In this document: piece after piece, positions 5,378 through 20,561 of the stretch
Layout of the letters: each line of letters starts with the position of its first letter
Numbering within the stretch: the first letter of the stretch is position 1
Source: a virus
Taxonomy: Duplodnaviria; Heunggongvirae; Uroviricota; Caudoviricetes
Direction: 5' to 3' (one strand)
Length of the DNA: 64,000 bases
Virus record (IMG/VR): IMGVR_UViG_3300043313_000558
The notes under the pieces: generated by a model
What the model saw: only the letters and a program-made list of their open reading frames with translations
Database searches by the model: none
What the model was told of the DNA's origin: nothing
Made by a program: the position numbers and the translations under genes

Positions 5378-7405
5378 TCAGGTCCCTATGTCTTCGACGA
5401 CGAACTGTCCGGGTGAGGTGGCGCTGCCCTGCATGGTGATCACGCCGGTGCCCGAGGCCCGGGCGACGGAGACCTTGAGGACGTGTGAGCCCGCGGTGAA
5501 CTGGCCGATGTAGGTGGCGGTCATGTTGAAGGCGGTGGTCGCCGGTGCCTGGCTGATCGAGGAGACCAGCGAGGTAGCGCCATCACGCAGGATCAGCTGG
5601 ATTCGGTCACCGGCCACAGTGGTGATGAAGTTGGCCCACACGTTCAGCTTGTACCAGCGACCCGCCACACAGGTGATCGTCGTGGTCAGCCCCGCGATAT
5701 CCACCGGGGTGGTGCTGTTGGCGGTGTTGGCGGTGTTCGCGGTGATCTGGCCCATCCCCATGATCCCCAGCGGACGGTAGTCGACCTCGGCGACCTTGTT
5801 GTCCACGTAGTTCTTGGTGGTGGCGTGGTCGGGGTTGACCGGGTCGGCCATCCCGTAGATCTTCTGGCCGTTCATGTTGAAGCTGACCCCGACGGTGATG
5901 TCGCCCATCCCCGCTGGGTTGTAGTCCAGCTTGGTAGTGCGGATCTCGGTCTTGCTGAACGGGTCGGGCGTGCTGCCCCCACTACCGCCACTGAAGGCCA
6001 CCCAGGCGTTGGTCGTACCACCGACCCAGATGTAGCTCAGCCCGGTGTCGGTCTCGTAGATGATCAGACCGTCCTGGACGAAGGTTGGCCGAGTAGAGCT
6101 GGTCACCGTCCACACGTTGGCGGCGCTGTAGACCCACTTCAGCCCGTCCCAGATCGCCAGGGCACGCTGGTTCTGGTTGTAGTACAGCTGCCCAGCCCCA
6201 CGCGGAGTGGGGAAGGAGAACAGCCCGCCGGTGTCGACATGGGTCTGGCAGCGCCAGGTCTGGGAGTCGGTGCCCAGCGTGGCCACCGGGTCGGTCTGGG
6301 TGAAGATCTTCATGTAGCTGGTGGTGCCAGCCAGCACCTTGACCTTGGCACCCTGGGTGACCTTGGCTGCGGTGTTCGCATCGGTAGCCCGGCTCCAGGC
6401 TCCGGCAGCTGCGACGTAGATCCCGTTGTCGAACGCGTTGGTCTGGTTCTTGACCAGGATCCGTTCGGTGGCGCTGAAGGCGTAGCCGTCGATGGTCGAA
6501 GTGCCGGACAGGGTGATGTTGGCGGTGGTCGCACAGGCGACCGGGGCCAGGTACCGATCCCCGCTGGCGGTGAGCACTGTCCCGTTGATCGTGGCCCCGC
6601 TGGCGGCCAGCTGGGTGAAAGTGGCCGCACCGGCCTGGGTGATCCTGGCGACCTCAGTGCCCGCGTTCTTCCAGGACAGGTCGGTGTACAGGATGTTGGC
6701 CTGGTACTTGTCCACCGTCGGCATCTCGTTGCCGGTCATCGGTCGGTCCAGGGCCCACTCGATCTCGCCCACCTGAGCAGCAGCACCAGGAGGTGCGGTC
6801 AGGGTGAACTCCACCTCGGAGAGCTGGTAGAAGCTGTTGTAGGCCTTCTGGATCAGCTGGTCGGGGCTACGGCGCACCTCGTCGACCGTGTTCAGGGTGT
6901 GCCAGCCCAGCCCATGCGGGGCGTAGTTGCAGTAGACCCGCACGCTGACCGACTCGGTCCAGGACACGTAGTAGTGACTGACGATGAACCAGCCGTAGGG
7001 AAAGCCGTAGAAGAAGCCGTTGAAGTTGACGTTGAGGACCACGTAGTTGTTCGCCGCGATGGTGAAGCCGCCCTCGTAGTCCCCGTCGAAGAACTGGTCG
7101 ACCTGGGCGTTGGACAGAGTGCCGAGCAGGGTCCCGCCGTTGCGGTCGTAGATCTTGGCGGTGACGGTCCAGCGCTCCCGGGCCTTGAACATCGCGTCGT
7201 TGAGCGCGCTTTGGTACAGGTGTCGGCCACCGAACGGGTTGGCGTTCATCACCAGGTCATCGTTGGACAAGGTGGCGTACCAACCGTTGCCGTTGCTGAT
7301 GTAGTGCTTGCCGTCGGTGGTGTTGAAGTAGGTGCTTCCGGCAGGCGCGATGGCAGGCGCGGTGGCATAGCGCTGCGCCCCGGTGATGCCGTATCGCTGC
7401 GGCAT
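5378..7405 (-). CDS. tail fibre protein (675 aa)
   Basis: real start MPQRYGITGAQRYATAPAIAPAGSTYFNTTDG at 7405 (ATGA overlap with upstream stop); the first 163 codons of the listed 838-aa ORF are R/H-rich out-of-context read-through; shares YFNT[AT]D and TKNYVD motifs with 7405..8652. Confidence 0.6.
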   Translation of the reverse strand: MPQRYGITGAQRYATAPAIAPAGSTYFNTTDGKHYISNGNGWYATLSNDDLVMNANPFGGRHLYQSALNDAMFKARERWTVTAKIYDRNGGTLLGTLSNAQVDQFFDGDYEGGFTIAANNYVVLNVNFNGFFYGFPYGWFIVSHYYVSWTESVSVRVYCNYAPHGLGWHTLNTVDEVRRSPDQLIQKAYNSFYQLSEVEFTLTAPPGAAAQVGEIEWALDRPMTGNEMPTVDKYQANILYTDLSWKNAGTEVARITQAGAATFTQLAASGATINGTVLTASGDRYLAPVACATTANITLSGTSTIDGYAFSATERILVKNQTNAFDNGIYVAAAGAWSRATDANTAAKVTQGAKVKVLAGTTSYMKIFTQTDPVATLGTDSQTWRCQTHVDTGGLFSFPTPRGAGQLYYNQNQRALAIWDGLKWVYSAANVWTVTSSTRPTFVQDGLIIYETDTGLSYIWVGGTTNAWVAFSGGSGGSTPDPFSKTEIRTTKLDYNPAGMGDITVGVSFNMNGQKIYGMADPVNPDHATTKNYVDNKVAEVDYRPLGIMGMGQITANTANTANSTTPVDIAGLTTTITCVAGRWYKLNVWANFITTVAGDRIQLILRDGATSLVSSISQAPATTAFNMTATYIGQFTAGSHVLKVSVARASGTGVITMQGSATSPGQFVVEDIGT

Positions 7406-8652
7406 CAGCCCACCACCACGACCCGGTAGCCAGCGCCCAGGTTGGGGCTGTAGCGCAGCACGGCGGTGTTGACCGTGGTGGCATCCCAGTCGACCTCCAC
7501 CGCGGTGTACGGGGATGCCCCGTTGAGCACGGTCAGGGAGATGTCGCGGGTGTTCAGGTTGTGGGTGACCGTCTCCGGGCTTGCTGTTCCGCTCAGGCCT
7601 GCAGCGAACTTGCGAGCTCCAGCTGCAGCAGCGATTGCCGCGTTCATCGAGGTGATCGTCGGGATCACTGCGGTGTCCACGGCCACGGAGTCCGCGGCCA
7701 CGGTGATACCGGTGCCTGCCCCCACGTCGAAGGTGTTGGCTGAAAGGGTAAGGCCAGCACCCCCGACGTAGGTTGCCCCACCGGTACCGAACTGGGCATA
7801 GGTGAGGTTGGTGGTGTCGATGGTGATCGGCAGGTTGGTGGTGAGCACCCAGGCGGTGTCGGCCTGGGTAGAGCCCTCCTGCACGAACACACACATGCCC
7901 GCGATCTCGTTAGCGCTGTCCACGTCGGTGGCCCGGTACCAGGCCCCGGACTGAACCACCCAGATCCCGTTCTGGGAGGCGGTGCTCTGGTTCTTCACCA
8001 GCACCCGGTCCTGCACCACGGTGGTGACCCCGTCGATGGTCAGGAAGCCGCTCAGCGCGGTATTGGCCGTGGTGGCCACCCGCACGGCGTCCTTCCAGGC
8101 CAGGCCGAACACGGTGGCGTCCACATAGTTCTTGGTCGCTGCGTCGCTGGGCACGTTGGGCTCAGCCAGGTTGGTGATCTTCTTGGAGTTGAAGGACACG
8201 TCCACGGACGGCACGGCCAGGGCGCTCAGCGGGATGGTGGAGTGCGCGGACGCATCGTGCGCGGGAGTGCCGTGGGTGTGGTCGCTACGGGAGAGCGAGG
8301 AGGCAGAGCCGTTGGCTGAGGCCAGCCCATAGGTGGTCTCGGCGGTGACCGAGCCGAACGCGGGCATCCCGTGCTTGTGGTCCTCGCGGGCGAAGTTGGC
8401 CCCGGTGCCTACTGTCCCGCCATCACCGATCGCCTGGGTGGTCACGGTGGAGGCCGGGGTTGCTCCAGCACCCGCCTTGGCGGCAGTCCAGATCGGCCCG
8501 GTGGTGTTGGTGCAGCAGTACAGCGTGGCGTCGGCGGTGTTGAAGTAGATCTGCCCCAGGACGGGGCTGGCCGGGGCACTGGACAGGTTCTGCACCTGGG
8601 CTTGGCGCAGCTCGTTCTTGGACAGGTCTACGGCCCCGTAGAAGGTCGCCAT
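7405..8652 (-). CDS. tail fibre protein (415 aa), paralogue of 5378..7405
   Basis: N-terminus ..ASPVLGQIYFNTADATLY and ..SDAATKNYVDATV motifs shared with the neighbouring fibre gene; Ala/Thr/Gly-rich beta-type composition. Confidence 0.6.
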   Translation of the reverse strand: MATFYGAVDLSKNELRQAQVQNLSSAPASPVLGQIYFNTADATLYCCTNTTGPIWTAAKAGAGATPASTVTTQAIGDGGTVGTGANFAREDHKHGMPAFGSVTAETTYGLASANGSASSLSRSDHTHGTPAHDASAHSTIPLSALAVPSVDVSFNSKKITNLAEPNVPSDAATKNYVDATVFGLAWKDAVRVATTANTALSGFLTIDGVTTVVQDRVLVKNQSTASQNGIWVVQSGAWYRATDVDSANEIAGMCVFVQEGSTQADTAWVLTTNLPITIDTTNLTYAQFGTGGATYVGGAGLTLSANTFDVGAGTGITVAADSVAVDTAVIPTITSMNAAIAAAAGARKFAAGLSGTASPETVTHNLNTRDISLTVLNGASPYTAVEVDWDATTVNTAVLRYSPNLGAGYRVVVVG

Positions 8653-8659
8653 GGTGCTC

Positions 8660-9421
8660 CTAGGACAGATAGGCCTCTCCGCCCAGGGAGGCGGAGAAGG
8701 TCAGTCGGATGGTGGAGGCACTCAGGTACTCGACGGTGCCGGGAAAGACCTGTTCCTTCAGGGAGTTGACCACGACCACGGAGGGCTGAAAGGTCAGTGG
8801 GTGGCTGATCGTCCAGGTAGTGGAGGCGCTGACCTGGTAGTGCGTGTAGGAGGAGGTGCCCCCGGCCACTGCGGAGACGGTGATGATCGCCTCGCCAGCA
8901 TCACCGAGGGTGACCAGCACCCCCTCACCACGAAAGTCCAGCAGGGAGGCTGCGGTCAGTACCGTGGTGTTGTCCTCCTGGACCATCACAGACCCACCGA
9001 CTCCGGGTACTCCAGGTGGCCCAGGAGGGCCCTGCACGTACCAGATCCCGTTGGCTGCGGGCACCGGGGAGATGTCGGCCAGCTGCCGGTCACTGCCCTC
9101 GGGAACGTCGATGTGAAAGCTGTCCAGGTGGACCTGCTCCAGGTCAAAGCTGACCTCGTAGGTGTAGTCCACTGGCTCCAGGTTGGGGTTATCGGTGGCG
9201 ACCAGCTCCACCTGGCCATCCCCGTTGGGGTCCAGGTAGGCGCTGTAGGCGTGCACCGGGTAGAGCACGTCGTTGGTCGCATCGCGCAGAAACTCCGCAG
9301 TCGGGGTGAAGTAGACCCGGCCCACCACGGGCTGGATCAGCTGCACCCCATTGACCGCGACGGAGTGGCGTAGCCGTATCCGGACGATCCCGGTGCCCAC
9401 GCCGATCGGGAGATCTGGCAT
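8660..9421 (-). CDS. tail fibre-like protein (~253 aa)
   Basis: internal start MPDLPIGVGTG preferred over the ORF start at 9460; contains GPPGPPGVPG triplet and Ig-like beta-rich C-terminus; N-terminal domain paralogous to 5013..5375. Confidence 0.5.
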   Translation of the reverse strand: MPDLPIGVGTGIVRIRLRHSVAVNGVQLIQPVVGRVYFTPTAEFLRDATNDVLYPVHAYSAYLDPNGDGQVELVATDNPNLEPVDYTYEVSFDLEQVHLDSFHIDVPEGSDRQLADISPVPAANGIWYVQGPPGPPGVPGVGGSVMVQEDNTTVLTAASLLDFRGEGVLVTLGDAGEAIITVSAVAGGTSSYTHYQVSASTTWTISHPLTFQPSVVVVNSLKEQVFPGTVEYLSASTIRLTFSASLGGEAYLS

Positions 9422-9463
9422 GTCCTCAGTCTCCCAGCGCACGCACCTGACCCTGAGCACAGC

Positions 9464-9499
9464 AAAGCGCCGGGCCCCCCTGCAAAGGCCCGGCGCTTT
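9464..9499 (-). terminator. 13-bp-stem hairpin downstream of the 193-aa gene
   Basis: aaagcgccgggcc / ggcccggcgcttt perfect inverted repeat. Confidence 0.4.
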
Positions 9500-9517
9500 A
9501 GCTGCAAATGCTACTGC

Positions 9518-10099
9518 TTACTTGCGCTTGCCCCGACCACGCGGGTCCACGACCGGAGGCTCGCCCTCGACCGGGATCTCGTTGGGAAGGGTGTTGTCGG
9601 GGTGCTCACCCGGATTGCCACCACCAGAGCCAGGGAGGGTGTTGTCCGGGTGCTCTCCGCCACCGCCGGTCTGCGGGTCGTTGGCCTCGAAGCCCGAGGA
9701 GAGGTCATCGAGGCGCTGCTTGGCGCTGTCGATGGTGGACACCAGGGCCTCGGAGTTCGCGACCTGGGCCTCCAGGGCGGCGTTGAGCTCGGTGTTCTCC
9801 GAGGAAGCCGCTTCGAGGGCGTCACGGGTCTCCTGCAGGTTGCGCTCGGCTTCCTGCCGAACCTGGTCGAGCTCGGTGGTGATCGCCTGCTGCAGGCGGT
9901 TGATGGACTCGTTGAGCGGTGCCATGTACTTCTCCAGTTCTGTAGAAACGTGTCGTTCGATGTGCCGTACCGCGGCCCGGATAGCCCGCAGCGTTTCCTT
10001 GTGCATTGCCTTCATGCCCTGCTGTTCTAGCCAGCTGACCATCCGCTCTCCTTGCTCTTGTAGCCAGTCTCCCAGGGCCTGCACGTCAGCCCTGCGCAT
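9518..10099 (-). CDS. coiled-coil protein with Gly-rich C-terminal tandem repeat; possible fibre assembly/chaperone protein
   Basis: heptad-like ELEKYMAPLNESINRLQQAITTELDQVRQEAERNLQE region; C-terminus GEHPDNTLP repeated twice (48-bp DNA period at 9585-9658). Confidence 0.45.
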   Translation of the reverse strand: MRRADVQALGDWLQEQGERMVSWLEQQGMKAMHKETLRAIRAAVRHIERHVSTELEKYMAPLNESINRLQQAITTELDQVRQEAERNLQETRDALEAASSENTELNAALEAQVANSEALVSTIDSAKQRLDDLSSGFEANDPQTGGGGEHPDNTLPGSGGGNPGEHPDNTLPNEIPVEGEPPVVDPRGRGKRK

Positions 10100-10307
10100 C
10101 CATCAGGACGTGCCCGAAGTCGTGGTCGGCCTTGACCGTGATGATCTGGGAGTCGATCAGCTTGGGCTCCCAGCCACACAGGCAGATGAACGTGGGCTGG
10201 GTGAACAGGCGTTGGTCGTTTGCATCCAGCACGACCGTCTTGACCAGGCCCTGCTCGGTGCAGCCCGACACCAGGCACTGGTAGATGTTCTTCAGGCGCT
10301 TCCTCAT
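10086..10307 (-). CDS. hypothetical 73-aa protein
   Basis: ORF between two fibre-module genes, overlapping the next start; no motif. Confidence 0.3.
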   Translation of the reverse strand: MRKRLKNIYQCLVSGCTEQGLVKTVVLDANDQRLFTQPTFICLCGWEPKLIDSQIITVKADHDFGHVLMDAQG

Positions 10308-10316
10308 GTGCTCCCC

Positions 10317-11576
10317 TTACCTCGTGGCCGCCTTGATGACGGTCCCGCTCAGGTTCTTGATGGTGACCCGGGGGTCATCACAGATGATCTGGCTCTCGCG
10401 GGCCACGAAGATCTCCCGAGGGGCACCACCGAAGGTGTTGTTGTTGCCCCAGAGCAGCACGCCACCGAAGTTGGACTCCAGGCGGGCCAGACCTCGGTTG
10501 CCGCCGAACATGCAGCTGTCCACGGAGATCTCGGTGTTGCCGCTGATCCCCTGGATGCCCTGGCCGCCCTTGAACGAGCAGGCAGTGAAGGCGAAGTTGT
10601 TCGCGCTGCCGTTGAAGCGCACCTGGTAGGACTCGGTGGGGTAGCCGTCCGGGGCATCGAACTCGGTGCCGATGCACCGGGAGTTGTGCCCGTAGGTGAC
10701 CTTGAGCTGGTAGCTCTTGCGCCGCGCACTGATCATCGCGGAGCCGATGACGGACTTGGAGCAGGAGAACTCGATGAAGGGCAGGTCAGCACCCATCCAG
10801 GTGGTGTTGCCGGAGTCCATGAACCCACCACCGAGGAACCACTTGCACTCGGATCCGCCCAGGGTGAGCGGGGTTGCTCCGGACATGGCCTGGAAGTTGT
10901 TGAACCCGCTCATGTCCAGGCCAGTGCCCCAGCCCTTGAAGATGTTGCGCCAGCCCACGAAGGAGCAGTTGTTGAAGTCCCAGTACCACTGCACGTAGTT
11001 GGAGTCGAAGCCCCCAGGAGCCCGAGGCAGGAAGTCCTTGTCACTTCCTGCGCTGAACTGGATGCCCGAGGCCACGAAGTCCCGGCTAACCCCGTTGGCG
11101 GGGTAGCTGTAGCCGGTGTTCTTGTAGAGCACGAACATCGAGGAGCCCGCAGGCCCGGTGTAGGTGATCGTGGGGGCCTTGCCGTACTCGAAGGCCCTGC
11201 CCTGGCTACCACGCCATCTACCAGGCGCAGTGGGGATCTGCACGTTGCAGTAGTGGTTGCGGAAGGCGAACTCCACCTCACCGGTCCAGCCCTGCTTCAT
11301 CTTGTTGGCCAGGTTGGTGAACCGCTCGTTGTCCGAGCTGCCCAGCGAGTCGAACGGGGTGCCGTTGCCGCTGCCCTGGGTGATCGTGCCACCAGAGCCA
11401 GAGCCAGCAGGTCCGGGTGGGCCCATCGGGCCTTCGGGTCCGGGAGGACCTTGTGGACCGGGAGGACCTGCTGGGCCTTGGCTGCCGGTGCCCACAGTGG
11501 GATAGGGCGGTAGGGGGACGAACTGGTCCAGATCGGGATCAAACACCTGCAGGTTGGCCATGCGCTTACCTTTCAT
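10317..11576 (-). CDS. collagen-like repeat + right-handed beta-helix (pectin-lyase-like) tail fibre/tailspike
   Basis: GSQGPAGPPGPQGPPGPEGPMGPPGPAGS Gly-X-Y run; C-terminal repeats with N/G/C-rich beta-helix turns (NNFAFTACSF, NTEISVDSCMFGGN). Confidence 0.6.
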   Translation of the reverse strand: MKGKRMANLQVFDPDLDQFVPLPPYPTVGTGSQGPAGPPGPQGPPGPEGPMGPPGPAGSGSGGTITQGSGNGTPFDSLGSSDNERFTNLANKMKQGWTGEVEFAFRNHYCNVQIPTAPGRWRGSQGRAFEYGKAPTITYTGPAGSSMFVLYKNTGYSYPANGVSRDFVASGIQFSAGSDKDFLPRAPGGFDSNYVQWYWDFNNCSFVGWRNIFKGWGTGLDMSGFNNFQAMSGATPLTLGGSECKWFLGGGFMDSGNTTWMGADLPFIEFSCSKSVIGSAMISARRKSYQLKVTYGHNSRCIGTEFDAPDGYPTESYQVRFNGSANNFAFTACSFKGGQGIQGISGNTEISVDSCMFGGNRGLARLESNFGGVLLWGNNNTFGGAPREIFVARESQIICDDPRVTIKNLSGTVIKAATR

Positions 11577-11950: not shown

Positions 11951-12324
11951 GTGCTCTTGATCCTGCGCAGCTTGACCCGCTCATGGCCGACCAGGGAGCG
12001 CCAGTTGTGGATCGCGGTGTCGGTGTTGGAGGTGACCGGCTCGGCATGGGCCCAGTTGCCCTTGCGGTCCTGCACCAGGATCCAGTGGGTGGGCTTGGGT
12101 TGGGCTTCGGCCTCGGCCCTCCACCGGGCGTAGCGGGCCTCCTCGGCCTCCTTGAACACCCTGGAGTTCCAGGTGATCTTGCGGCCCTCGCACTCGATGT
12201 AGTCGAGGGACTCCATGCCCATGTCGGAGGCGTAGATCGCGGCCTCGATGGCCTCGGGCAGCGAGTCGAAGCTCTCCACCACGTACTGCCCGTAGACGTG
12301 GGCGAACTTCAGGGCCTTGGCCAT
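11947..12324 (-). CDS. hypothetical 125-aa protein
   Basis: ORF with ATGA coupling to both neighbours. Confidence 0.4.
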   Translation of the reverse strand: MAKALKFAHVYGQYVVESFDSLPEAIEAAIYASDMGMESLDYIECEGRKITWNSRVFKEAEEARYARWRAEAEAQPKPTHWILVQDRKGNWAHAEPVTSNTDTAIHNWRSLVGHERVKLRRIKST

Positions 12325-12512
12325 CAGGAGGCCTTGCGGTGCGAGATCTCGAAGTAGGTGTTGGTCAGGTAGCGGATCACCGCGCTCATCGACTCCATGT
12401 TCAGCTCCTGCTGCAAGGCCCGGATCCTGGCCTTCTCGGTCGGGCTCAACCTCACGAATACCAGGTCTGAGCGGGTCTCACCGTCGATGGTGATCTCCTT
12501 GCCTCGGGGCAT
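12324..12512 (-). CDS. ribbon-helix-helix (CopG/Arc-like) DNA-binding protein
   Basis: internal start MPRGKEITIDGETRSDLVFVRLSPTEKARIRALQQELNMESMSAVIRYL: beta-strand followed by two helices typical of RHH. Confidence 0.45.
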   Translation of the reverse strand: MPRGKEITIDGETRSDLVFVRLSPTEKARIRALQQELNMESMSAVIRYLTNTYFEISHRKAS

Positions 12513-12583
12513 CTGCTTCTCCTTTAGGTGGGGCTCCGCCAGGCCGCAGGCCCGCATCACGCAACGACCTGGCGGAGGTCTTG

Positions 12584-14821: not shown

Positions 14822-16327
14822 CTAGGTCAGGTTGTAGACGTCCTCGTCAACCTTGTGCACCTCGCCCTCACGCCAGGCCGTACCGGTGGCCAGCTGCTCC
14901 TTGTTCTGCTCGACCTGGTCGGCCATCCAGTTCCGCTCGCTCTTAGGGCTCGCCCAGGGGTTCACCGCCGGGAAGCGGTGCGAGACCAGCTTCCAGGCCA
15001 GTGCGGCGCTGCAGAAGCTGTCCGGGAGGTGGAAGTCCTTACCCCGGCTGTACAGGTCGTCAGTGGACGCGTAGAGGATCTCCCGGTAGAAGGAGCCGAT
15101 CCGGGGTGCAGTGATCTGACCCCGCTCCACCCCGGAGACGAACTCGGAGAGCATGTCGTCACGCTCACGTCCGGCCATCACGAAGTTGCGGACCCGGCTG
15201 TCCATCATGTCGGAGACCACCCGGCCCAGCCCGGTGGCGTCGTGGATGCCCGCCGCGTTGTAGCTCTTGGCCAGCTTGTTGAACCAGCCGACCATGTACG
15301 GGTAGGGCCTGCGCTGCATCCGGATGTAGTACACGCAGCGGATCGGTGCACTGGTCACGTCCCACACGGTGATCACGGTCCAGTCGATCGCCTGAGCCCA
15401 GTCCGCGGCGATCACGTAGTCGGTGTCGGAGCGCGGCTCCTCGTAGAGCACCTGTTCGAAGTCCCGGTCGGCCTTGATCGGCTCAGGGTTGGGCAGCGAG
15501 AACATCCGTTCTACTGCTTCGGAGTCGATCGCACGGTTGCCGATGCTGGGCTCACCGAGCTCGTACTCCACTCGCCAGCGCTCTCGGGACACCTCCAGCT
15601 TCTTCTGCTCGACGAACTCTTCGTCCAGCCAGCCGTCCCGGGCCCACATCGTGTCCTTGTAGCACCACTCGAAGATGGGCAGGCCCTCGTCCTTGAACCG
15701 GTGCATCTCCTTGGCCATGGTGCCGTCGGCGTACTGCAGCGTGGAGCCCATCATGGTCTGCTGCGGGATCCGCGCCCCCACGTGGTTGGGCTGCGGCATC
15801 GGCTGGCCCTTGGCGCTCTCCAGGATCTCGTAGTCCATCTCGTCGATCTCGTCCAGGATCAGTCGAGGTGGGTGAGGACCACGCACCGCCTTCTGGGACG
15901 CGGTCAGTGGGCGGATGATCGCCTTGTTGTGCAGGATCATCTTCTGGATCGCGTCGGTCTTGATCATCGACCGAGGTGCACCGGGGCTGTCCCAGGCCTT
16001 ACGCATGTGCTCCAGGACGTTCTGGGACTGGTTCTCGCTACCACCGACGATGTTGCAGTCGGTGCCCCAGATCACCGCGGTGGTCAGCCCGAGCAGGCTC
16101 ATCATCGCGCTCTTACCGCTCAGGCCTCGCGAGCCCAGGCAGAGCACCTGTGGGCTGCGGGCGAAGAAGCTGTGCGCGAAGGCGTCGAACGGGGCCTGGT
16201 GGTGGGCACAGTGCTTGTCCCGGGGGATGGTCACCCCCCAGAAGGCCTTGACCACCTCGTAGAGCTCACCGTCGTTGTGCGGCGGACGGGTCAGCTGATA
16301 GCTGGGCGGGACGGTGATCGTGCTCAT
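14822..16327 (-). CDS. terminase large subunit
   Basis: Walker A GSRGLSGKS, Walker B LILDEIDEM, and C-terminal RNaseH-like nuclease region with acidic residues (DWAQAIDWTVITVWD, GIHDATGLG). Confidence 0.8.
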   Translation of the reverse strand: MSTITVPPSYQLTRPPHNDGELYEVVKAFWGVTIPRDKHCAHHQAPFDAFAHSFFARSPQVLCLGSRGLSGKSAMMSLLGLTTAVIWGTDCNIVGGSENQSQNVLEHMRKAWDSPGAPRSMIKTDAIQKMILHNKAIIRPLTASQKAVRGPHPPRLILDEIDEMDYEILESAKGQPMPQPNHVGARIPQQTMMGSTLQYADGTMAKEMHRFKDEGLPIFEWCYKDTMWARDGWLDEEFVEQKKLEVSRERWRVEYELGEPSIGNRAIDSEAVERMFSLPNPEPIKADRDFEQVLYEEPRSDTDYVIAADWAQAIDWTVITVWDVTSAPIRCVYYIRMQRRPYPYMVGWFNKLAKSYNAAGIHDATGLGRVVSDMMDSRVRNFVMAGRERDDMLSEFVSGVERGQITAPRIGSFYREILYASTDDLYSRGKDFHLPDSFCSAALAWKLVSHRFPAVNPWASPKSERNWMADQVEQNKEQLATGTAWREGEVHKVDEDVYNLT

Positions 16328-16348
16328 GTGGGCATCGTCCCACCCGTG

Positions 16349-17374
16349 TCACACGTACTCGCGCCAGGTGAACTTCAGCCGCCCGCTGGTGGTTCCCTTG
16401 CCGTAGCAGATGTTGTAGTAGCTGCTCGTGGTGGACGTGGTGCCGTACATCATCCCGATGCCCCGGTACTCCCCGGACAAGAAGTTGTTGTGCCAGTCGC
16501 TCTTGAGCGTGATCGTCTTGCCCTCGCCACGGCCCAGGTCCACCGCGTTGTACTCACCGACCACCCGGTTCGACCCCGGCGAGCCGGAGGGCTGGGAGGT
16601 CAGGTCGTGGTGCCCGATCATGATGTTGCCGTCACCGGCGATGCCGTGTGAGGAGGAGGAGCGCTGCACGTAGAGCTCCACCTTGGTCAGGTCGTAGGCG
16701 TTCTTTATGAGGTTGTAGATGGCCGTGCCGTAGAACCAGAACCCCTGGAAGTTATCGCCACTACCTTGGTACACGTAGTTGTTGTCGGTACGCCATCCGT
16801 AAGAGCTGCGGTACGACGCACTGTCGGTGCAGGTGACGTACGCGGTCTTAGTGGTGAGCACCTTACTTGGTGCCGGGGGTAGCGGAGTGGTCGTGGTGTA
16901 CTGAGTCGGCGCGCTCCAGTTCCCGGAGGCATCGCGAGTCCATCCGGTCACGTAGTACTTGGTCCCCGAGCTAAGCGCGGGGGTGACCCGGGTGGTGGTG
17001 GACCCGGGTGCCCCGGTCCAGGACCAGTGCGGCTGGCCATCGGCTTGGGTATTGGTGAAGCTGTTGGCGTCGACCACGCCCGGGTTGGTCGGGTACGCGG
17101 TCTTGGACATCTTCAGGCAGCCACCAGTGACATCGACGTCAGCGGCCAGCTTGACCGTCACTGAGTAGGTCTTGGTGGTGGTGTTGTGTGCTCCAGCGCT
17201 GAAGACGATCACGCCCGGGGGCACCAGGTCGGCGTTGAACCGCTCGGTCCACACCGTCGGGGCGGTCTTCTCGTACAGGTGCACCACCGGCTTCCAGCTG
17301 GTGGCGTCCTTGGTGTAGAGCGGACCGGGCTTCCAGCCGTCTACGGTCTTGATGTAGATCGTGCCGAAGGCCAT
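16349..17374 (-). CDS. tail fibre/receptor-binding-like protein (341 aa)
   Basis: Thr/Ser/Gly-rich beta composition, SWTGAPGSTTTRVTP, YYVTGWTRDASGNWSAPTQYTTTTP repeats. Confidence 0.45.
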   Translation of the reverse strand: MAFGTIYIKTVDGWKPGPLYTKDATSWKPVVHLYEKTAPTVWTERFNADLVPPGVIVFSAGAHNTTTKTYSVTVKLAADVDVTGGCLKMSKTAYPTNPGVVDANSFTNTQADGQPHWSWTGAPGSTTTRVTPALSSGTKYYVTGWTRDASGNWSAPTQYTTTTPLPPAPSKVLTTKTAYVTCTDSASYRSSYGWRTDNNYVYQGSGDNFQGFWFYGTAIYNLIKNAYDLTKVELYVQRSSSSHGIAGDGNIMIGHHDLTSQPSGSPGSNRVVGEYNAVDLGRGEGKTITLKSDWHNNFLSGEYRGIGMMYGTTSTTSSYYNICYGKGTTSGRLKFTWREYV

Positions 17375-17703
17375 CAGGTCGTCTTCACGTACAGGTCACC
17401 CACCGTGCCCAGTGAGGAAGCCGGTGCGGCGGTGCCGCTGTAGACCATCGGCTGGGGCGGGTAGACCCGCTTCCAGGTGGTGCCGTCATAGACCTGGATG
17501 ACCTTGTCGGCAGTGATCCAGGCGACCTCACCGGCCACCGGGGTGGGCCGCTTGGTGGACAGGTCAGCGGACGTGGTGAACCGCTGGACGCTACGCAGCT
17601 CGGCGAAGATGCTGAGCAGGTAGAGCCAGTCGTTCATGTTGTTCATCGGCTCGTTGACGTCCGGGAACGGCCAGGCCTGGTTGGCCGTTGCACGCATGCT
17701 CAT
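17374..17703 (-). CDS. small fibre-associated protein (109 aa)
   Basis: C-terminus VYDGTTWKRV..GDLYVKTT echoes the GTIYIKTVDGWK start of the downstream 341-aa gene. Confidence 0.35.
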   Translation of the reverse strand: MSMRATANQAWPFPDVNEPMNNMNDWLYLLSIFAELRSVQRFTTSADLSTKRPTPVAGEVAWITADKVIQVYDGTTWKRVYPPQPMVYSGTAAPASSLGTVGDLYVKTT

Positions 17704-17711
17704 GAGATCTC

Positions 17712-18446
17712 CTAGGCGGGGTTGGTGCCGCCGATGTCGGCGATCGTGGTGGTCGGGGTAACGATCGATCCGGCCGGGCCGACAGGACCCTGTGGGCCGA
17801 TGTCGCCCTGGATGCCCTGAATGCCCTGGATACCTTGCACACCCTGCTGCCCGGCACCGGTCTTGTTAATCCACAGGTAGCCGGTCACGTTCAGCGTGGC
17901 GGTGTCGTTGTGGCTGACCTTGAAGTTGAGGATGTCGGTGCCCGAGGTGGAGCGCAGCGACAGCGGCAGGCGAATCACGGTGTTGACCAGGCTGTTGCTG
18001 GGGATTATGACCTCCCCGACGTTCACCGAGTTGTAGACGGCCTGGATGGCCCTAAAGCCGGTGCCGTTGACCGAGGTCTGCTTGAAGAAGTGGATCGACA
18101 CTTCGAGGTTGTAGTCCGACCCCGGGGCCAGCACGAAGTTGGTGGTGGAGGCCTGCGCACTGAGTTCATCACGCACCACGGTGCCGAAGCTGATCGTGGT
18201 CCAGGTGGTCGGGTAGTTGCTGGTGACCGTGGACAGCCCGATGCCCTGGGAGGAGGCGGTGAACTGAGAGCTGACCTGCTGCACCCCACCAGTGGGTCCT
18301 GGCACGCCCTGAGGGCCCGCATCGCCCTTCTCCCCCTTGGGGCCGGTAGAACCGGTAGGACCCTGTGGACCGATGCCCTGGATGGTGCCGGTGCGCACGC
18401 TCAGCGTGCCCCCGCTCTCCAGCCGAGTGACCTGTGAGCTGCTCAT
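17712..18446 (-). CDS. collagen-like repeat protein (244 aa), fibre-like
   Basis: GPQGPTGSTGPKGEKGDAGPQGVPGPTG and GVQGIQGIQGIQGDIGPQGPVGPAG Gly-X-Y runs at both ends. Confidence 0.6.
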   Translation of the reverse strand: MSSSQVTRLESGGTLSVRTGTIQGIGPQGPTGSTGPKGEKGDAGPQGVPGPTGGVQQVSSQFTASSQGIGLSTVTSNYPTTWTTISFGTVVRDELSAQASTTNFVLAPGSDYNLEVSIHFFKQTSVNGTGFRAIQAVYNSVNVGEVIIPSNSLVNTVIRLPLSLRSTSGTDILNFKVSHNDTATLNVTGYLWINKTGAGQQGVQGIQGIQGIQGDIGPQGPVGPAGSIVTPTTTIADIGGTNPA

Positions 18447-18829
18447 ACCGACCTCGTGATCCGCTTGTTGACGTACACGTTGCCCTGGACCAGGCGATGG
18501 ATCCTCGTGGCGTTGGTGTCCATGTTGTCCACGTAGGTGATGAACAGGTCGTACTGGTAGACCCCCGACGGGAAGCCCGAGGTGTCCTCGGCCGGGATGG
18601 TCAGCTGGATCAGCCCGGTGTCGGAGTTGTACAGGATGCTCTGGGACCCGGTGGTGTTCCCGTCCGAGGTGGCCAGGGTGTACATGGTGTTGCCGACGTC
18701 GTCGCGGATCTCCATCCGCATCGGGGCGAGCACGGTGTAGGGCTGCTGATCCATCGTCGTCCAGTAGAGCTGAACGCCGTAGTCAGCGCCCTGGTCGATC
18801 TCCAGATCGACGAGCGCAGCAGTACTCAT
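18443..18829 (-). CDS. hypothetical 128-aa beta-rich protein
   Basis: ORF coupled to both neighbours. Confidence 0.35.
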   Translation of the reverse strand: MSTAALVDLEIDQGADYGVQLYWTTMDQQPYTVLAPMRMEIRDDVGNTMYTLATSDGNTTGSQSILYNSDTGLIQLTIPAEDTSGFPSGVYQYDLFITYVDNMDTNATRIHRLVQGNVYVNKRITRSV

Positions 18830-19296
18830 CAGGCCTCCTCTTCCTGACCATCATCGCGTGCCGGGCCAGTCACCTGATGCTGCTCGCGACCTGCTCGAAG
18901 AGCCCGCTCATAGGCCTCCTTGCCACCGGAGACCACGATCACCTGGGTGGCGTTGGCCAGCTCATCCGGGCTGGGCTGGTCCAGGCGAAGCAGCTTCATC
19001 CGCTGGGCCATGATCTTGAGAGTGACCTCAGCCCCCTCCTTGTCGCCCTCGGTGCCCTGCACGTAGAACGGGATCATCATCTCGTCCAGGCGGGCCAGCT
19101 CCATAGCGATGATGTGGTCGCGCTCTTGCAGGGAGTACTCGCTGACCATGTCCACCATGTAGGCCCGGTAGCCCCGGATGCACTCGGGCACGGTCAGCTG
19201 CAGGCGCTCAGCGATCTCCTCAAAGGACAGCCCTGCGCGCTTGAAGTGGTAGATCTTCTTGTCGGTGTCGTCGACCGGGAACTGGATCACGCTCAT
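18829..19296 (-). CDS. small terminase subunit-like HTH protein (155 aa)
   Basis: internal start MSVIQFPVDDTDKKIYHFKRAGLSFEEIAERLQLTVPECIRGY (helix-turn-helix) followed by a helical oligomerisation-like region; lies upstream of terL in the same transcript direction. Confidence 0.4.
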   Translation of the reverse strand: MSVIQFPVDDTDKKIYHFKRAGLSFEEIAERLQLTVPECIRGYRAYMVDMVSEYSLQERDHIIAMELARLDEMMIPFYVQGTEGDKEGAEVTLKIMAQRMKLLRLDQPSPDELANATQVIVVSGGKEAYERALRAGREQHQVTGPARDDGQEEEA

Positions 19297-19712
19297 GCCG
19301 CCTCGATCCTGCGCATCGCGTCGTATACCTCCGCGATGGTGAGTGCGGCCGAGTCGACCGCTCGGAAGATCTCCTTCCGCTGTCGCATCGTAGTTCCGGC
19401 CCACAGGCCGTAGTCCTCGCGGTTGGTCAGCGCCTGGTACAAGCACTCATTGAAAACCGGGCACATCTCGCAGATGGCCCGGGCTTTGCGTATCGAGGTG
19501 AGCGTGTACGCGGGACGCTCCTCGGGGGTCGAGGAGCCAAAGAACACACTCTTGGAGGTGGTCCGGCATGCTGCCCTGGTGTGCCACTCGGGCATCAGGG
19601 AGATGATGGACCGGTACCGGGGGACATCGTCCACGTCGGCATGATCAGCGATGCTGAAAAAGTCATTGGCACTCTTCCAGTGTCCGTCCGTAGACGAAGA
19701 TCGCTGCAGCAT
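19293..19712 (-). CDS. whiB: WhiB-like Fe-S transcription factor
   Basis: four Cys: WHTRAACRTT ... CEMCPVFNEC plus the GLWAG turn. Confidence 0.65.
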   Translation of the reverse strand: MLQRSSSTDGHWKSANDFFSIADHADVDDVPRYRSIISLMPEWHTRAACRTTSKSVFFGSSTPEERPAYTLTSIRKARAICEMCPVFNECLYQALTNREDYGLWAGTTMRQRKEIFRAVDSAALTIAEVYDAMRRIEAA

Positions 19713-20118
19713 CAGTCAGATCCTGGTCTTGACCGCAGAGCGCTGCATAGTCTGGGTGCTCCTTACCTAGCCATAACGCCACATCATCCTTGCTCACGCC
19801 ACCTTTGCCAACTGTTGCTTTTTTCCAGCTGTCGACCGGGACCACGTGCACCCGGGCGTGTCGCGAAAGAACCATCCCCACCGTCTCGGCGATGAGGATG
19901 GTTGTTCGGATGTTGCGCACCCCTGCTAACACCGGTTCTTCCACGTAGATCACCGGGTCGGGGTCGGCCTCGATCAGCGTGTTGAGCCAGAGCTTCATGG
20001 CGTTCAGCTCGATGTTGCGGTTGGTCTTCTTGACCAGGATGTGGGCAGTGCGTGGCCCTGCCTCACCATCGGTGAACAGGGCCAGCTTCTTGGATGCCGG
20101 GTCGCAGCCCCAGATCAT
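19663..20118 (-). CDS. ruvC: RuvC-like Holliday junction resolvase
   Basis: N-terminal IWGCDPASKK (catalytic Asp), later IYVEEPV and VPVDSWKK acidic residues in RNaseH-fold spacing. Confidence 0.6.
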   Translation of the reverse strand: MIWGCDPASKKLALFTDGEAGPRTAHILVKKTNRNIELNAMKLWLNTLIEADPDPVIYVEEPVLAGVRNIRTTILIAETVGMVLSRHARVHVVPVDSWKKATVGKGGVSKDDVALWLGKEHPDYAALCGQDQDLTDAAAIFVYGRTLEECQ

Positions 20119-20561
20119 CCGAGGTTGGCGTCGTAGCGCTGTCGGGAGATGACGTCCTCCTGGGTAAGTCGGCGAGAGCCAAGGTCACAGTGCTTGCGAG
20201 CGGCTTCGATGAACGCTCGTAGTGGGCCCACGCGGACTCGATAGTACGGGTCGGACTTCTTCACCGCCCCGGTCCCCTCGCCCTCATGGATCAGCGCGTC
20301 GATCTCCTGAGCTCGGGAGTAGTAGGCCACCGCGCACTCCATCAGGCCCAGGTATGGGCTGTCGATCGGTGGGTCTACTCGTCCGAGGAGGACGTTCCAG
20401 TACTCGTGGAGCTCTCCCAGAATCTCTGGTACGTCTGGAAGACCTGCGGGGAGAGGGACCGAGGTGAGTCGTTCGCCGAACTGGACATGCGAAGGATGAC
20501 GGACCTCGCCTGGACTGCCGGATACGACATCTTCGGGCAGCTTGATGCGAACGGACACCAT
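20115..20561 (-). CDS. hypothetical protein
   Basis: ORF 20115..20588; its 5' part overlaps the 3' end of the RecB-like gene in another frame, so the true start may lie near 20342. Confidence 0.3.
   Translation of the reverse strand: MVSVRIKLPEDVVSGSPGEVRHPSHVQFGERLTSVPLPAGLPDVPEILGELHEYWNVLLGRVDPPIDSPYLGLMECAVAYYSRAQEIDALIHEGEGTGAVKKSDPYYRVRVGPLRAFIEAARKHCDLGSRRLTQEDVISRQRYDANLG

What the first reader, a model, noticed from the sequence alone, without database searches (positions are those of the whole stretch)
14822..19296. Fibre-like genes, one with collagen repeats, lie between the small and large terminase genes
The order on the transcribed strand is terS-like (18829..19296), then a 128-aa protein, a 244-aa collagen-repeat protein, a 109-aa protein and a 341-aa fibre-like protein, then terL (14822..16327). 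Structural-looking genes splitting the terminase pair is atypical. It suggests either a mobile moron insertion or that these are head fibres or decoration proteins rather than tail fibres. The collagen-repeat protein has Gly-X-Y runs at both termini (GPQGPTGSTGPKGEKGDAGPQGVPGPTG and GIQGIQGIQGDIGPQGPVGPAG).
Basis: partly seen in the sequence, partly recalled or inferred. Interest (0 to 1): 0.6.

Follow-up and report, generated by a model that had tools for sequence, protein, structure and literature searches.

The report
Side tail-fibre genes upstream of terminase
In an uncultured high-GC phage genome, four genes that most likely build side tail fibres sit between a small DNA-binding protein that may be the small terminase and the large terminase gene. 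The order is real and conserved in relatives, but it has precedents and is not a recent insertion.

Summary
The gene order and the two Gly-X-Y runs are exactly as described. The 501-aa protein is a genuine large terminase. The four genes in between are not a moron: the same order, WhiB-HTH-128-collagen-109-341-TerL, recurs in metagenomic relatives down to 57% TerL and about 30% HTH identity. GC content matches the flanks and the start and stop codons overlap.

The genes look like a lateral tail-fibre module, not head fibres. The 128-aa protein folds like the T5 p132 / DT57C LtfC collar that anchors side fibres (Foldseek E 8e-7, TM 0.67). It is followed by a collagen-like protein whose N-terminus is its best-conserved part. 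The 341-aa protein matches the C-terminal end of giant minor tail proteins of Streptomyces phages.

The "terS" call is plausible but unproven. The protein belongs to phrog_645, whose members overlap terL in Jace, Lilmac1015 and Hendrix. Its best fold matches are the P74-26/G20c small terminases, but those matches are not significant, and no TerS Pfam family is hit. In a deeper clade (TerL 41%) the HTH and fibre genes stay together, about 9.5 kb from terL on the opposite strand.

Tail genes upstream of terL are already known in L5, Bxb1, Arthrobacter cluster AQ and T5. Interest is modest.

The parts
19293..19712 (-). WhiB-like transcription factor; last recognisable gene of the replication/early arm, overlaps the HTH gene by 4 nt (context)
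   Evidence: Pfam Whib 1.5e-19; WhiB precedes the HTH gene in all relatives
18829..19296 (-). 155-aa HTH + helical-hairpin protein of family phrog_645; candidate small terminase (TerS-like), not proven
   Evidence: phrog_645 3e-13. AF2 model: HTH 11-52, helices 56-82 and 86-104, disordered acidic tail. Foldseek top 4 are P74-26/G20c TerS, E 0.08-0.19. Family members overlap terL in Jace, Lilmac1015 and Hendrix. No TerS Pfam hit.
18443..18829 (-). 128-aa LtfC/p132-like beta-sandwich protein: predicted collar that anchors lateral tail fibres
   Evidence: Pfam LtfC 1.9e-5 (25.6 bits, just under the 27 cut-off). Most of 50 homologues carry a precomputed PF23926 hit. AF2 pLDDT 81.7. Foldseek top hits are DT57C LtfC 8hqz_Q and T5 p132 7qg9_L, E 8e-7 and 1e-6, TM 0.65-0.67. 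Chain identities confirmed.
17712..18446 (-). 244-aa collagen-like fibre protein: conserved N-terminal ~24 aa, Gly-X-Y 26-55, variable globular middle, Gly-X-Y 199-228, conserved C-terminal tail
   Evidence: Pfam Collagen 4.9e-7; many PHROG tail-fibre families; repeat runs and shuffle test; conservation pattern in the 8-sequence alignment A5
17374..17703 (-). 109-aa small protein, inferred fibre connector or adaptor
   Evidence: Only weak PHROG hits of unknown function; conserved in position in all relatives, 30-59% identity; role inferred from position only
16349..17374 (-). 341-aa distal fibre protein, inferred receptor-binding tip
   Evidence: phrog_11445 minor tail protein 2.3e-19, aligned to positions 1696-1996 of 2001. 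tblastn 30% over 87% to the C-terminal end of Streptomyces phage Yaboi gp66, a 2,004-aa minor tail protein. Most divergent member of the cassette between relatives.
14822..16327 (-). large terminase subunit (TerL)
   Evidence: followed 10 kb downstream by the portal at 2638-4584

Best explanation
The four genes encode a multi-part lateral (side) tail fibre. The 128-aa protein is proposed to form a collar on the tail tip, as T5 p132 / DT57C LtfC does. The conserved N-terminus of the 244-aa collagen-like protein is proposed to dock into that collar, with its Gly-X-Y runs trimerising the shaft. The 109-aa protein would act as a joint, and the 341-aa protein would be the distal, fast-evolving host-binding tip. 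The cassette is an old, vertically inherited part of this phage lineage. It lies at the junction between the replication arm and the head genes. It appears to be co-transcribed, and partly translationally coupled, with a phrog_645 HTH protein upstream and terL downstream. That HTH protein is the best available candidate for the small terminase. If it is, terS and terL in this lineage are separated by a variable tail-fibre locus. Shown: gene order, conservation, the LtfC-like fold, collagen repeats, homology of the 341-aa protein to tail-protein C-termini, and TerL identity. Inferred: virion location, collar/fibre docking, the roles of the 109-aa and 341-aa proteins, co-transcription, and TerS function.
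For: Fold. The p128 model (pLDDT 81.7) matches LtfC and p132 over its full length at E 8e-7 to 3e-6, TM 0.61-0.67. The next hits are generic Ig V domains at E >= 2.5e-5, TM <= 0.5. Chain names were checked. LtfC is the dodecameric collar that anchors lateral fibres, and ltfC is followed by the fibre genes ltfA/ltfB in T5-like phages (PMC10713586), the same micro-synteny as here.

Collagen protein. The N-terminal ~24 residues and the C-terminal Gly-X-Y run plus tail are the conserved parts, and the middle is variable.

p341. It corresponds to the last ~300 residues of giant minor tail proteins at the end of the tail operon in Streptomyces BE phages.

Conservation of order. It holds in near-identical 83-kb contigs, L018 (TerL 77%), L006/L008/L009 (57-60%), L031 (61%) and L036. 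Divergence increases toward the distal gene: against L018, p128 is 70%, the collagen protein 57%, p341 48% and TerL 77%.

No sign of foreign origin.

TerS candidacy. HTH plus helical hairpin plus acidic tail. The top four Foldseek hits are TerS of P74-26/G20c, aligned over about 137 columns. The window's portal and TerL are distantly P23-45/P74-26-like. phrog_645 genes overlap terL in Jace, Lilmac1015 (annotated terS) and Hendrix. The family is large, with 3,660 50%-identity cluster representatives at E <= 0.001; the best 150 listed are nearly all about 140-190 aa.
Against: No protein here has been seen in a virion.

The window's own Pfam LtfC score (25.6 bits) is just below the gathering cut-off, and Ig-like sandwiches are common folds.

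In the L012/L013 clade (TerL 41%), the HTH-LtfC-fibre genes sit at the end of the replication arm on the strand opposite terL, about 9.5 kb away. In a more distant contig (L035) the HTH gene is again followed by collagen- and Collar-domain genes, with no TerL in the next 7 kb. In Mycobacterium B4 and Gordonia Fresco-type phages, phrog_645 lies in a small non-structural operon far from the terminase. These placements fit a regulator as well as they fit a TerS.
Confidence: 0.6

Rival explanations
1. The 155-aa HTH protein is not a small terminase but a late-gene or fibre-gene transcription regulator (sigma-70 region 4 / LuxR-like HTH with an oligomerising coiled coil). It would be encoded as the last gene of the replication arm. 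On this reading no terminase pair is split; the fibre genes are simply the first late genes, ahead of terL.
For: Only HTH families are hit: Sigma70_r4_2 in 36 of 111 family members, then HTH_23, HTH_38 and GerE, and NarL/GerE in the PDB profile search. The HTH-fibre linkage survives where terL is on the other strand and in L035. The HTH gene always follows WhiB and overlaps the LtfC-like gene by 1-4 nt. phrog_645 sits in non-structural operons in B4 mycobacteriophages and Gordonia Fresco.
Against: The family sits in the canonical TerS position, overlapping terL, in three unrelated isolated phage groups. The only full-length structural matches are TerS proteins. No other TerS candidate was found next to terL in the window: the small ORFs downstream of it that were scanned gave no hit. 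Uniform small size and an acidic disordered C-tail are typical of TerS (established knowledge of SPP1/Sf6/P74-26-type small terminases).
Confidence: 0.3
2. The four proteins are head fibres or capsid decoration proteins, placed next to the head and packaging genes because they act on the capsid.
For: They lie beside terL and upstream of the portal. Collagen-like and Ig-like proteins can decorate capsids. A neighbouring gene beyond terL (7405-8652) hits phrog_2647, labelled 'head decoration', at 7e-56.
Against: None of the four hits a head-fibre or decoration family. p128 specifically matches the tail collar proteins LtfC/p132, ahead of all other Ig-like folds. p341 matches tail-protein C-termini. 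The collagen protein's PHROG hits that carry a function label are nearly all tail-fibre or tail families. In the L020 clade the cassette is far from the head genes and continues into Collar-domain-like fibre genes.
Confidence: 0.07
3. The cassette is a recently acquired mobile moron or host-range island inserted between an originally adjacent terS-terL pair.
For: The number of genes between HTH and terL varies between relatives: 4 in the window, 8 in L031, at least 9 with no TerL in sight in L030. A homing HNH_3 gene sits at the p341/terL junction in one near-identical genome. phrog_645 and terL are adjacent in other phages.
Against: The core four genes are present in the same order in all relatives of this clade, with divergence tracking that of the flanking genes. 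There is no compositional difference, no own promoter or terminator, and the codons overlap both neighbours. Any insertion would have to be ancient, which is not what 'moron' means.
Confidence: 0.03

Closest known systems
T5 p132 / DT57C LtfC-LtfA lateral tail fibre attachment system (PDB 7qg9, 8hqz; PMC10713586)
   Same: A ~130-140-aa single beta-sandwich protein whose predicted fold is the best match. Its gene lies immediately upstream of the fibre gene(s). The fibre protein has a conserved N-terminus and a trimerising shaft.
   Different: No detectable sequence similarity to p132/LtfC in a PDB sequence search. The shaft is collagen-like rather than an alpha-helical coiled coil. The fibre is split into three small proteins. 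The host is a high-GC (probably actinobacterial) organism. In T5 the ltf genes lie at the far end of the tail operon, not next to terL. The dodecameric ring and its docking partner were not tested.
Small terminases of Thermus phages P74-26 / G20c (Pfam TerS_N PF21434 + TerS_C PF22412; PDB 6v1i, 4xvn)
   Same: N-terminal HTH followed by long helices, and similar length. They are the top four Foldseek hits for the HTH155 model. The portal and TerL of the window are distantly related to those of this phage group.
   Different: Not significant by sequence or profile. In P74-26, terS overlaps terL; here four genes intervene.
phrog_645 proteins of actinobacteriophages (Gordonia Jace gp1, Arthrobacter Lilmac1015 gp1, Microbacterium Hendrix gp4, DelaGarza gp1; mislabelled 'RNase E' in PHROGs/RefSeq)
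   Same: Same family (E 3e-13 to 5e-25), same size and architecture. In DelaGarza the gene is also separated from the terminase gene, by six small genes that include an annotated minor tail protein.
   Different: In Jace, Lilmac1015 and Hendrix the gene overlaps terL directly. Only a few records call it terS. In B4 mycobacteriophages and Gordonia Fresco it is far from the terminase.
Tail genes upstream of terL in isolated phages: Mycobacterium L5 (gp5, gp6) and Bxb1 (gp2, gp4, gp6), Arthrobacter cluster AQ, T5 pb5; displaced minor tail genes of cluster S (Marvin-like) phages
   Same: Minor tail or receptor-binding genes are encoded ahead of the large terminase gene or away from the tail operon (PMC5513430; PMC9872701).
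   Different: In those phages no TerS-like gene is documented on the far side of the tail genes; in T5, pb5 lies upstream of both terS and terL. Those proteins are not homologous to the ones here.
Giant minor tail proteins of Streptomyces BE-cluster phages (e.g. Yaboi gp66, 2,004 aa; phrog_11445)
   Same: The 341-aa protein aligns to their last ~300 residues (30% identity, E 3e-14; phrog 2.3e-19).
   Different: Here the domain is a free-standing small protein rather than the end of a 2,000-aa fibre.

Membership tests
Terminase small subunit (TerS) | Small protein (~100-200 aa) with an N-terminal DNA-binding HTH | tested here: met
   155 aa. The AF2 model has HTH helices 11-52. Weak HTH Pfam hits for this protein, and stronger ones across the family.
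Terminase small subunit (TerS) | Central helical oligomerisation domain that forms a ring of 8-12 subunits | tested here: inconclusive
Terminase small subunit (TerS) | Sequence membership in a curated TerS family (Pfam Terminase_2/4, TerS_N/TerS_C, etc.) | tested here: not met
   No TerS family at E <= 1 for 17 close homologues. Among 111 diverse members only 3 weak Terminase_5 (HTH region) hits. hhalign against the P74-26 TerS family gives probability 23%.
Terminase small subunit (TerS) | Gene immediately upstream of, or overlapping, terL | tested here: not met
   In the window four genes (about 2.5 kb) intervene. In the L012/L013 clade the gene is on the opposite strand, 9.5 kb away. The feature is met for family members in Jace, Lilmac1015 and Hendrix.
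Terminase small subunit (TerS) | Binds the pac/cos region and regulates TerL ATPase/nuclease | not testable with these tools
   No pac-like repeat array was seen in 18400-20200, which is uninformative.
LtfC / p132 lateral-fibre collar (Pfam PF23926) | Single ~130-140-aa beta-sandwich domain with the LtfC fold | tested here: met
   AF2 pLDDT 81.7, all-beta. The best PDB matches are LtfC (8hqz_Q/T) and p132 (7qg9_L/J), E 8e-7 to 3e-6, TM 0.61-0.67. Chain names verified.
LtfC / p132 lateral-fibre collar (Pfam PF23926) | Passes the Pfam gathering threshold | tested here: inconclusive
   The window protein scores 25.6 bits against a cut-off of 27. Most of its 50 homologues carry a precomputed PF23926 hit, and L018 and L036 are marked weak.
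LtfC / p132 lateral-fibre collar (Pfam PF23926) | Gene adjacent to the fibre gene whose product it anchors | tested here: met
   Overlaps the collagen-like gene by 4 nt. The same pairing occurs in all relatives. T5/DT57C order is ltfC-ltfA.
LtfC / p132 lateral-fibre collar (Pfam PF23926) | Dodecameric ring around the tail tip that holds fibre N-termini by beta-strand augmentation | not testable with these tools
   No multimer modelling was available. Conservation of the N-terminus of the collagen protein is compatible but indirect.
Collagen-like phage fibre protein | Uninterrupted Gly-X-Y repeats long enough for a triple helix | tested here: met
   Two runs of 9-10 triplets; Pfam Collagen above threshold.
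Moron / recently inserted accessory cassette | Presence/absence polymorphism among close relatives, deviant composition, own promoter and terminator | tested here: not met
   Present in all relatives. GC 0.635-0.645, like the flanks. No promoter- or terminator-like sites on the - strand inside the cassette (a weak test for a high-GC host).
Head fibre / capsid decoration protein | Homology to a known head-fibre or decoration family, or placement inside the head operon | tested here: not met
   None of the four proteins hits such a family in Pfam, PHROGs or NCBIfam. Their function-labelled hits are nearly all tail families.
Large terminase (TerL) | N-terminal Walker A/B ATPase plus C-terminal RNase H-like nuclease | tested here: met
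   phrog_9 1e-7 over residues 70-173; Terminase_6C 7.7e-4 over 306-379 (below the Pfam cut-off); BLASTP to the P74-26 TerL nuclease domain E 2e-10.

The most novel reading that the evidence does not exclude
The phrog_645 HTH gene and the LtfC-type fibre cassette form one heritable unit. They are always overlapping or translationally coupled, and they stay together when terL is elsewhere. One possibility is that a genuine small terminase is genetically tied to host-range genes rather than to its enzymatic partner, so that packaging specificity and adsorption specificity travel together. The other is that phrog_645, routinely sitting in the 'terS slot' of many actinobacteriophages, is not a terminase subunit at all but a late or fibre-gene regulator. 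In that case many of these phages would lack an identified TerS.
Probability: 0.2. Interest if true: 0.5.

Novelty: new variant of a known kind. Interest (0 to 1): 0.3.

Why it matters
The finding gives a concrete, testable assignment for four unannotated genes that are conserved across a clade of uncultured 60-85-kb high-GC phages: collar, collagen shaft, linker and tip. It extends the T5-type collar mechanism of side-fibre attachment to a very different phage group, with a collagen shaft in place of a coiled coil. It also flags a large protein family (phrog_645, at least 3,660 cluster representatives, mislabelled 'RNase E') whose role as small terminase or regulator is unsettled and whose gene position relative to terL is unusually plastic. 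For annotation pipelines the lessons are practical. 'Gene upstream of terL' is not a safe rule for calling terS, and fibre genes next to terL need not be head fibres. None of this overturns current understanding.

Tried and rejected
- Megablast of the region against 50,697 phage records found nothing. TerL has only two remote tblastn hits among isolated phages, so isolated relatives could not be used directly.
- A viral-contig scan with the HTH protein alone found nothing. Relatives were reached instead through TerL, through exact-protein look-ups and through the L013 HTH protein.
- PDB sequence searches gave only designed repeat proteins, generic HTH regulators or noise. This covered HTH155 as a profile of 17 and as a profile of 111 sequences, p128 as a single sequence and as a profile, and p341.
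- hhalign of the HTH family against P74-26 TerS, alone or as an 11-sequence family, stayed below a convincing probability.
- NCBIfam gave nothing useful.
- DelaGarza gp5 ('minor tail protein') shows no similarity to the 109-aa protein.
- The search for pac-like repeats or hairpins around the HTH gene found only short chance-level matches.
- The promoter/terminator scan was at or below shuffle expectation.
- A scan of 185,579 species' genomes with TerL gave one 41% hit on a short MAG contig labelled Acidobacteria, so the host is unresolved.
- The SPP1 G1P sequence in the RefSeq record looks frameshifted at its C-terminus, so it was not used as a comparator.
- Considered and rejected: recent moron, and head fibres (see the rival explanations).

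Full report
**1. Observation**

Independent gene calls on near-identical metagenome contigs of 83,700 and 83,065 bp give the same six genes. Those two lengths suggest a genome of about 83 kb.

The genes are tightly packed:

| Junction | Spacing |
|---|---|
| WhiB / HTH | 4-nt overlap |
| HTH / 128 | 1-nt overlap |
| 128 / 244 | 4-nt overlap |
| 244 / 109 | 8-nt gap |
| 109 / 341 | 1-nt overlap |
| 341 / TerL | 21-nt gap |

The 244-aa protein carries two uninterrupted Gly-X-Y runs, at residues 26-55 and 199-228. Only 4 of 20,000 shuffles reach a run of 8 triplets. It passes the Pfam Collagen threshold.

The window as a whole is a 64%-GC phage genome with almost every gene on the minus strand. 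In order of transcription it runs: tape measure and minor tail genes (55-64 kb), a replication arm with DnaB, primase and Pol III alpha, then RuvC, WhiB, the region in question, small genes, more fibre-like genes, and the portal at 2638-4584.

**2. The large terminase is real**

- PHROG 'terminase large subunit' scores 1e-7 over the Walker A/B region.
- Pfam Terminase_6C hits the nuclease domain at 7.7e-4, just under threshold.
- A direct BLASTP to the nuclease domain of the biochemically studied P74-26 TerL gives 25% identity over 173 residues, E 2e-10.
- The portal hits Portal_Mu (7e-33) and the P23-45 portal model (9.7e-8).

The packaging module is therefore distantly of the P23-45/P74-26 kind.

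**3. The cassette is conserved, not a moron**

No isolated phage is close. Metagenomic relatives give a graded series. All of the following have the order WhiB-HTH-128-collagen-~109-~341-TerL:

| Relative | TerL identity |
|---|---|
| Near-identical contigs | ~100% |
| L018 | 77% |
| L031 | 61% (with four extra genes before TerL) |
| L006 / L008 / L009 | 57-60% |
| L036 | not compared (HTH ~30%) |

L030 has the same start of the cassette, followed by at least five more genes and no TerL within 8 kb.

Divergence rises along the cassette. Against L018, p128 is 70% identical, the collagen protein 57% and p341 48%, while TerL is 77%. This is what is expected if the last protein contacts the host.

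GC content equals that of the flanks. No promoter- or terminator-like sites lie inside the cassette.

The only presence/absence polymorphism among close relatives is a 169-aa HNH_3 homing-endonuclease gene at the p341/TerL junction of one 83.7-kb contig.

**4. What the four proteins are**

*The 128-aa protein.* It scores 25.6 bits on Pfam LtfC (cut-off 27). Most of its 50 homologues carry that hit. An AlphaFold model built on 32 sequences (pLDDT 81.7) is an all-beta sandwich. Its four best PDB matches are DT57C LtfC and T5 p132, at E 8e-7 to 3e-6 and TM 0.61-0.67 over the full length. Generic Ig domains follow at E 2.5e-5 or worse. I confirmed that those chains are p132 and the 'L-shaped tail fiber assembly' protein.

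In T5-like phages, twelve LtfC copies form a collar around the tail tip. The collar holds the N-terminal strands of the lateral fibre protein, and ltfC is followed by ltfA and ltfB (PMC10713586; PMC12617516). The same micro-synteny is seen here.

*The 244-aa collagen protein.* Its best-conserved parts are the first ~24 residues and the C-terminal Gly-X-Y run plus tail. The globular middle is variable. In the deep L020 clade only the N-terminal 32 residues remain alignable, at 56%.

*The 341-aa protein.* It aligns to positions 1696-1996 of the 2001-position 'minor tail protein' family phrog_11445. It also aligns to the last ~300 residues of Yaboi gp66, a 2,004-aa minor tail protein that closes the tail operon.

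*The 109-aa protein.* It has no informative hit. Its role as a joint is inferred from position only.

None of the four hits a head-fibre or decoration family. I therefore read the cassette as a four-part lateral tail fibre: collar, collagen shaft, linker, tip. Virion location and docking are inferred, not shown.

**5. Is the 155-aa protein a small terminase?**

For:
- The model shows an HTH (11-52), a helical hairpin (56-82, 86-104) and a disordered acidic tail.
- The only near-full-length Foldseek matches, and the top four overall, are the P74-26 and G20c small terminases. That phage group is where the window's TerL and portal have their distant relatives.
- The protein belongs to phrog_645, a label ('RNase E') that is clearly a misnomer.
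- Members of the family overlap terL in Gordonia phage Jace, Arthrobacter phage Lilmac1015 (annotated terS) and Microbacterium phage Hendrix.
- An exhaustive profile search finds 3,660 cluster representatives at E <= 0.001. The best 150 listed are nearly all about 140-190 aa.

Against:
- The Foldseek E-values are 0.08-0.19, with TM of only 0.26-0.31.
- hhalign against an 11-member P74-26 TerS family gives probability 23%, covering only the HTH and half a helix.
- Pfam sees only sigma-70 region 4 / LuxR-type HTH domains in the family.
- The gene's position is plastic:
  - In Microbacterium phage DelaGarza it is separated from the terminase gene by six small genes, one annotated as a minor tail protein.
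  - In B4 mycobacteriophages and Gordonia Fresco it lies in a small non-structural operon about 55 kb from the terminase gene.
  - In the L012/L013 clade (TerL 41%) the HTH gene, the LtfC-like gene and a long run of fibre genes sit at the end of the replication arm. They are on the strand opposite terL and about 9.5 kb from it.
  - In a still more distant contig (L035) the HTH gene is followed by a collagen protein, a GDSL lipase and a Collar-domain protein.

Thus the HTH-fibre linkage is more conserved than the HTH-terL linkage. I put TerS at roughly 60-65% and a regulator at roughly 30%.

**6. Comparison with what is known**

Tail genes ahead of terL are not new:
- L5 gp5/gp6 and Bxb1 gp2/gp4/gp6 lie upstream of the lysis cassette and terL.
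- T5 encodes its receptor-binding protein pb5 immediately upstream of terS-terL.
- Cluster S mycobacteriophages have displaced minor tail genes (PMC9872701).

What differs here is the combination of three things:
- a TerS-like gene on one side and terL on the other;
- an LtfC-type collar gene in a high-GC phage;
- a collagen shaft in place of the T5 coiled coil.

That makes this a new variant of known kinds rather than a new kind.

**7. Verdict**

Interest is modest (0.3).

The most novel reading not excluded is that phrog_645 and the fibre cassette form a functional unit. That would mean either a TerS coupled to host-range genes or a mis-assumed 'TerS' that is really a late or fibre regulator. 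I give it a probability of about 0.2.

Noticed in passing
window 5378-11576 (- strand): A second batch of fibre-like genes lies between terL and the portal: 419 aa (Gly-X-Y run at residues 31-60), 266 aa (short Gly-X-Y run), 415 aa (phrog_2647 'head decoration', 7e-56) and an 838-aa ORF. In relatives L005/L006/L007 the portal starts only 1.7-3.7 kb after terL. In the L020 clade homologues of these genes are contiguous with the HTH-LtfC cassette. So in this genome terL looks embedded in a split fibre locus.
   Followed up: partly
L014 12970-13479 (near-identical 83.7-kb contig): A 169-aa HNH_3 endonuclease gene is inserted between the 341-aa gene and terL. It is absent from the window and from two other near-identical contigs (L015, L016), which suggests a mobile homing endonuclease at this junction.
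   Followed up: no
L013 9983-12283: The TerL of this 41%-identical relative is 766 aa, against 521 aa in its near-twin L012. The difference is an intein-like insertion after the motif WQYPSG.
   Followed up: no
window 2638-4584 and 14822-16327: The portal hits Pfam P23-45_portal_barrel (9.7e-8) as well as Portal_Mu. The TerL nuclease domain aligns to P74-26 TerL (E 2e-10). The head-packaging module of this high-GC phage is distantly related to that of the Thermus phages P23-45/P74-26/G20c.
   Followed up: partly
PHROGs/RefSeq annotation of phrog_645 (e.g. Jace gp1, Hendrix gp4, Cooper): The family is labelled 'RNase E' in PHROGs and in many RefSeq records, but it shows only an HTH plus coiled-coil architecture. 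The label appears to be a propagated annotation error.
   Followed up: partly
window 7405-7894: The 838-aa ORF (GTG at 7894) overlaps the end of the 415-aa gene by about 490 nt in another frame. Its true start is probably well downstream of the listed one.
   Followed up: no
window 12324-12560 (- strand): A 78-aa ORF among the small genes downstream of terL has a ribbon-helix-helix-like sequence (…RLSPTEKARIRALQQELNMESMSAVIRYL…). It may be a small DNA-binding protein. This reading rests on the sequence alone; no family search was run on it.
   Followed up: no
L042 (JAKIXW010000046.1, 18.5-kb contig of a MAG labelled Acidobacteria): This is the only hit for this TerL among 185,579 species' genomes (41% identity). 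It is probably a phage contig binned into the MAG. The host of the window phage remains unresolved, though WhiB and 64% GC point to Actinobacteria.
   Followed up: no
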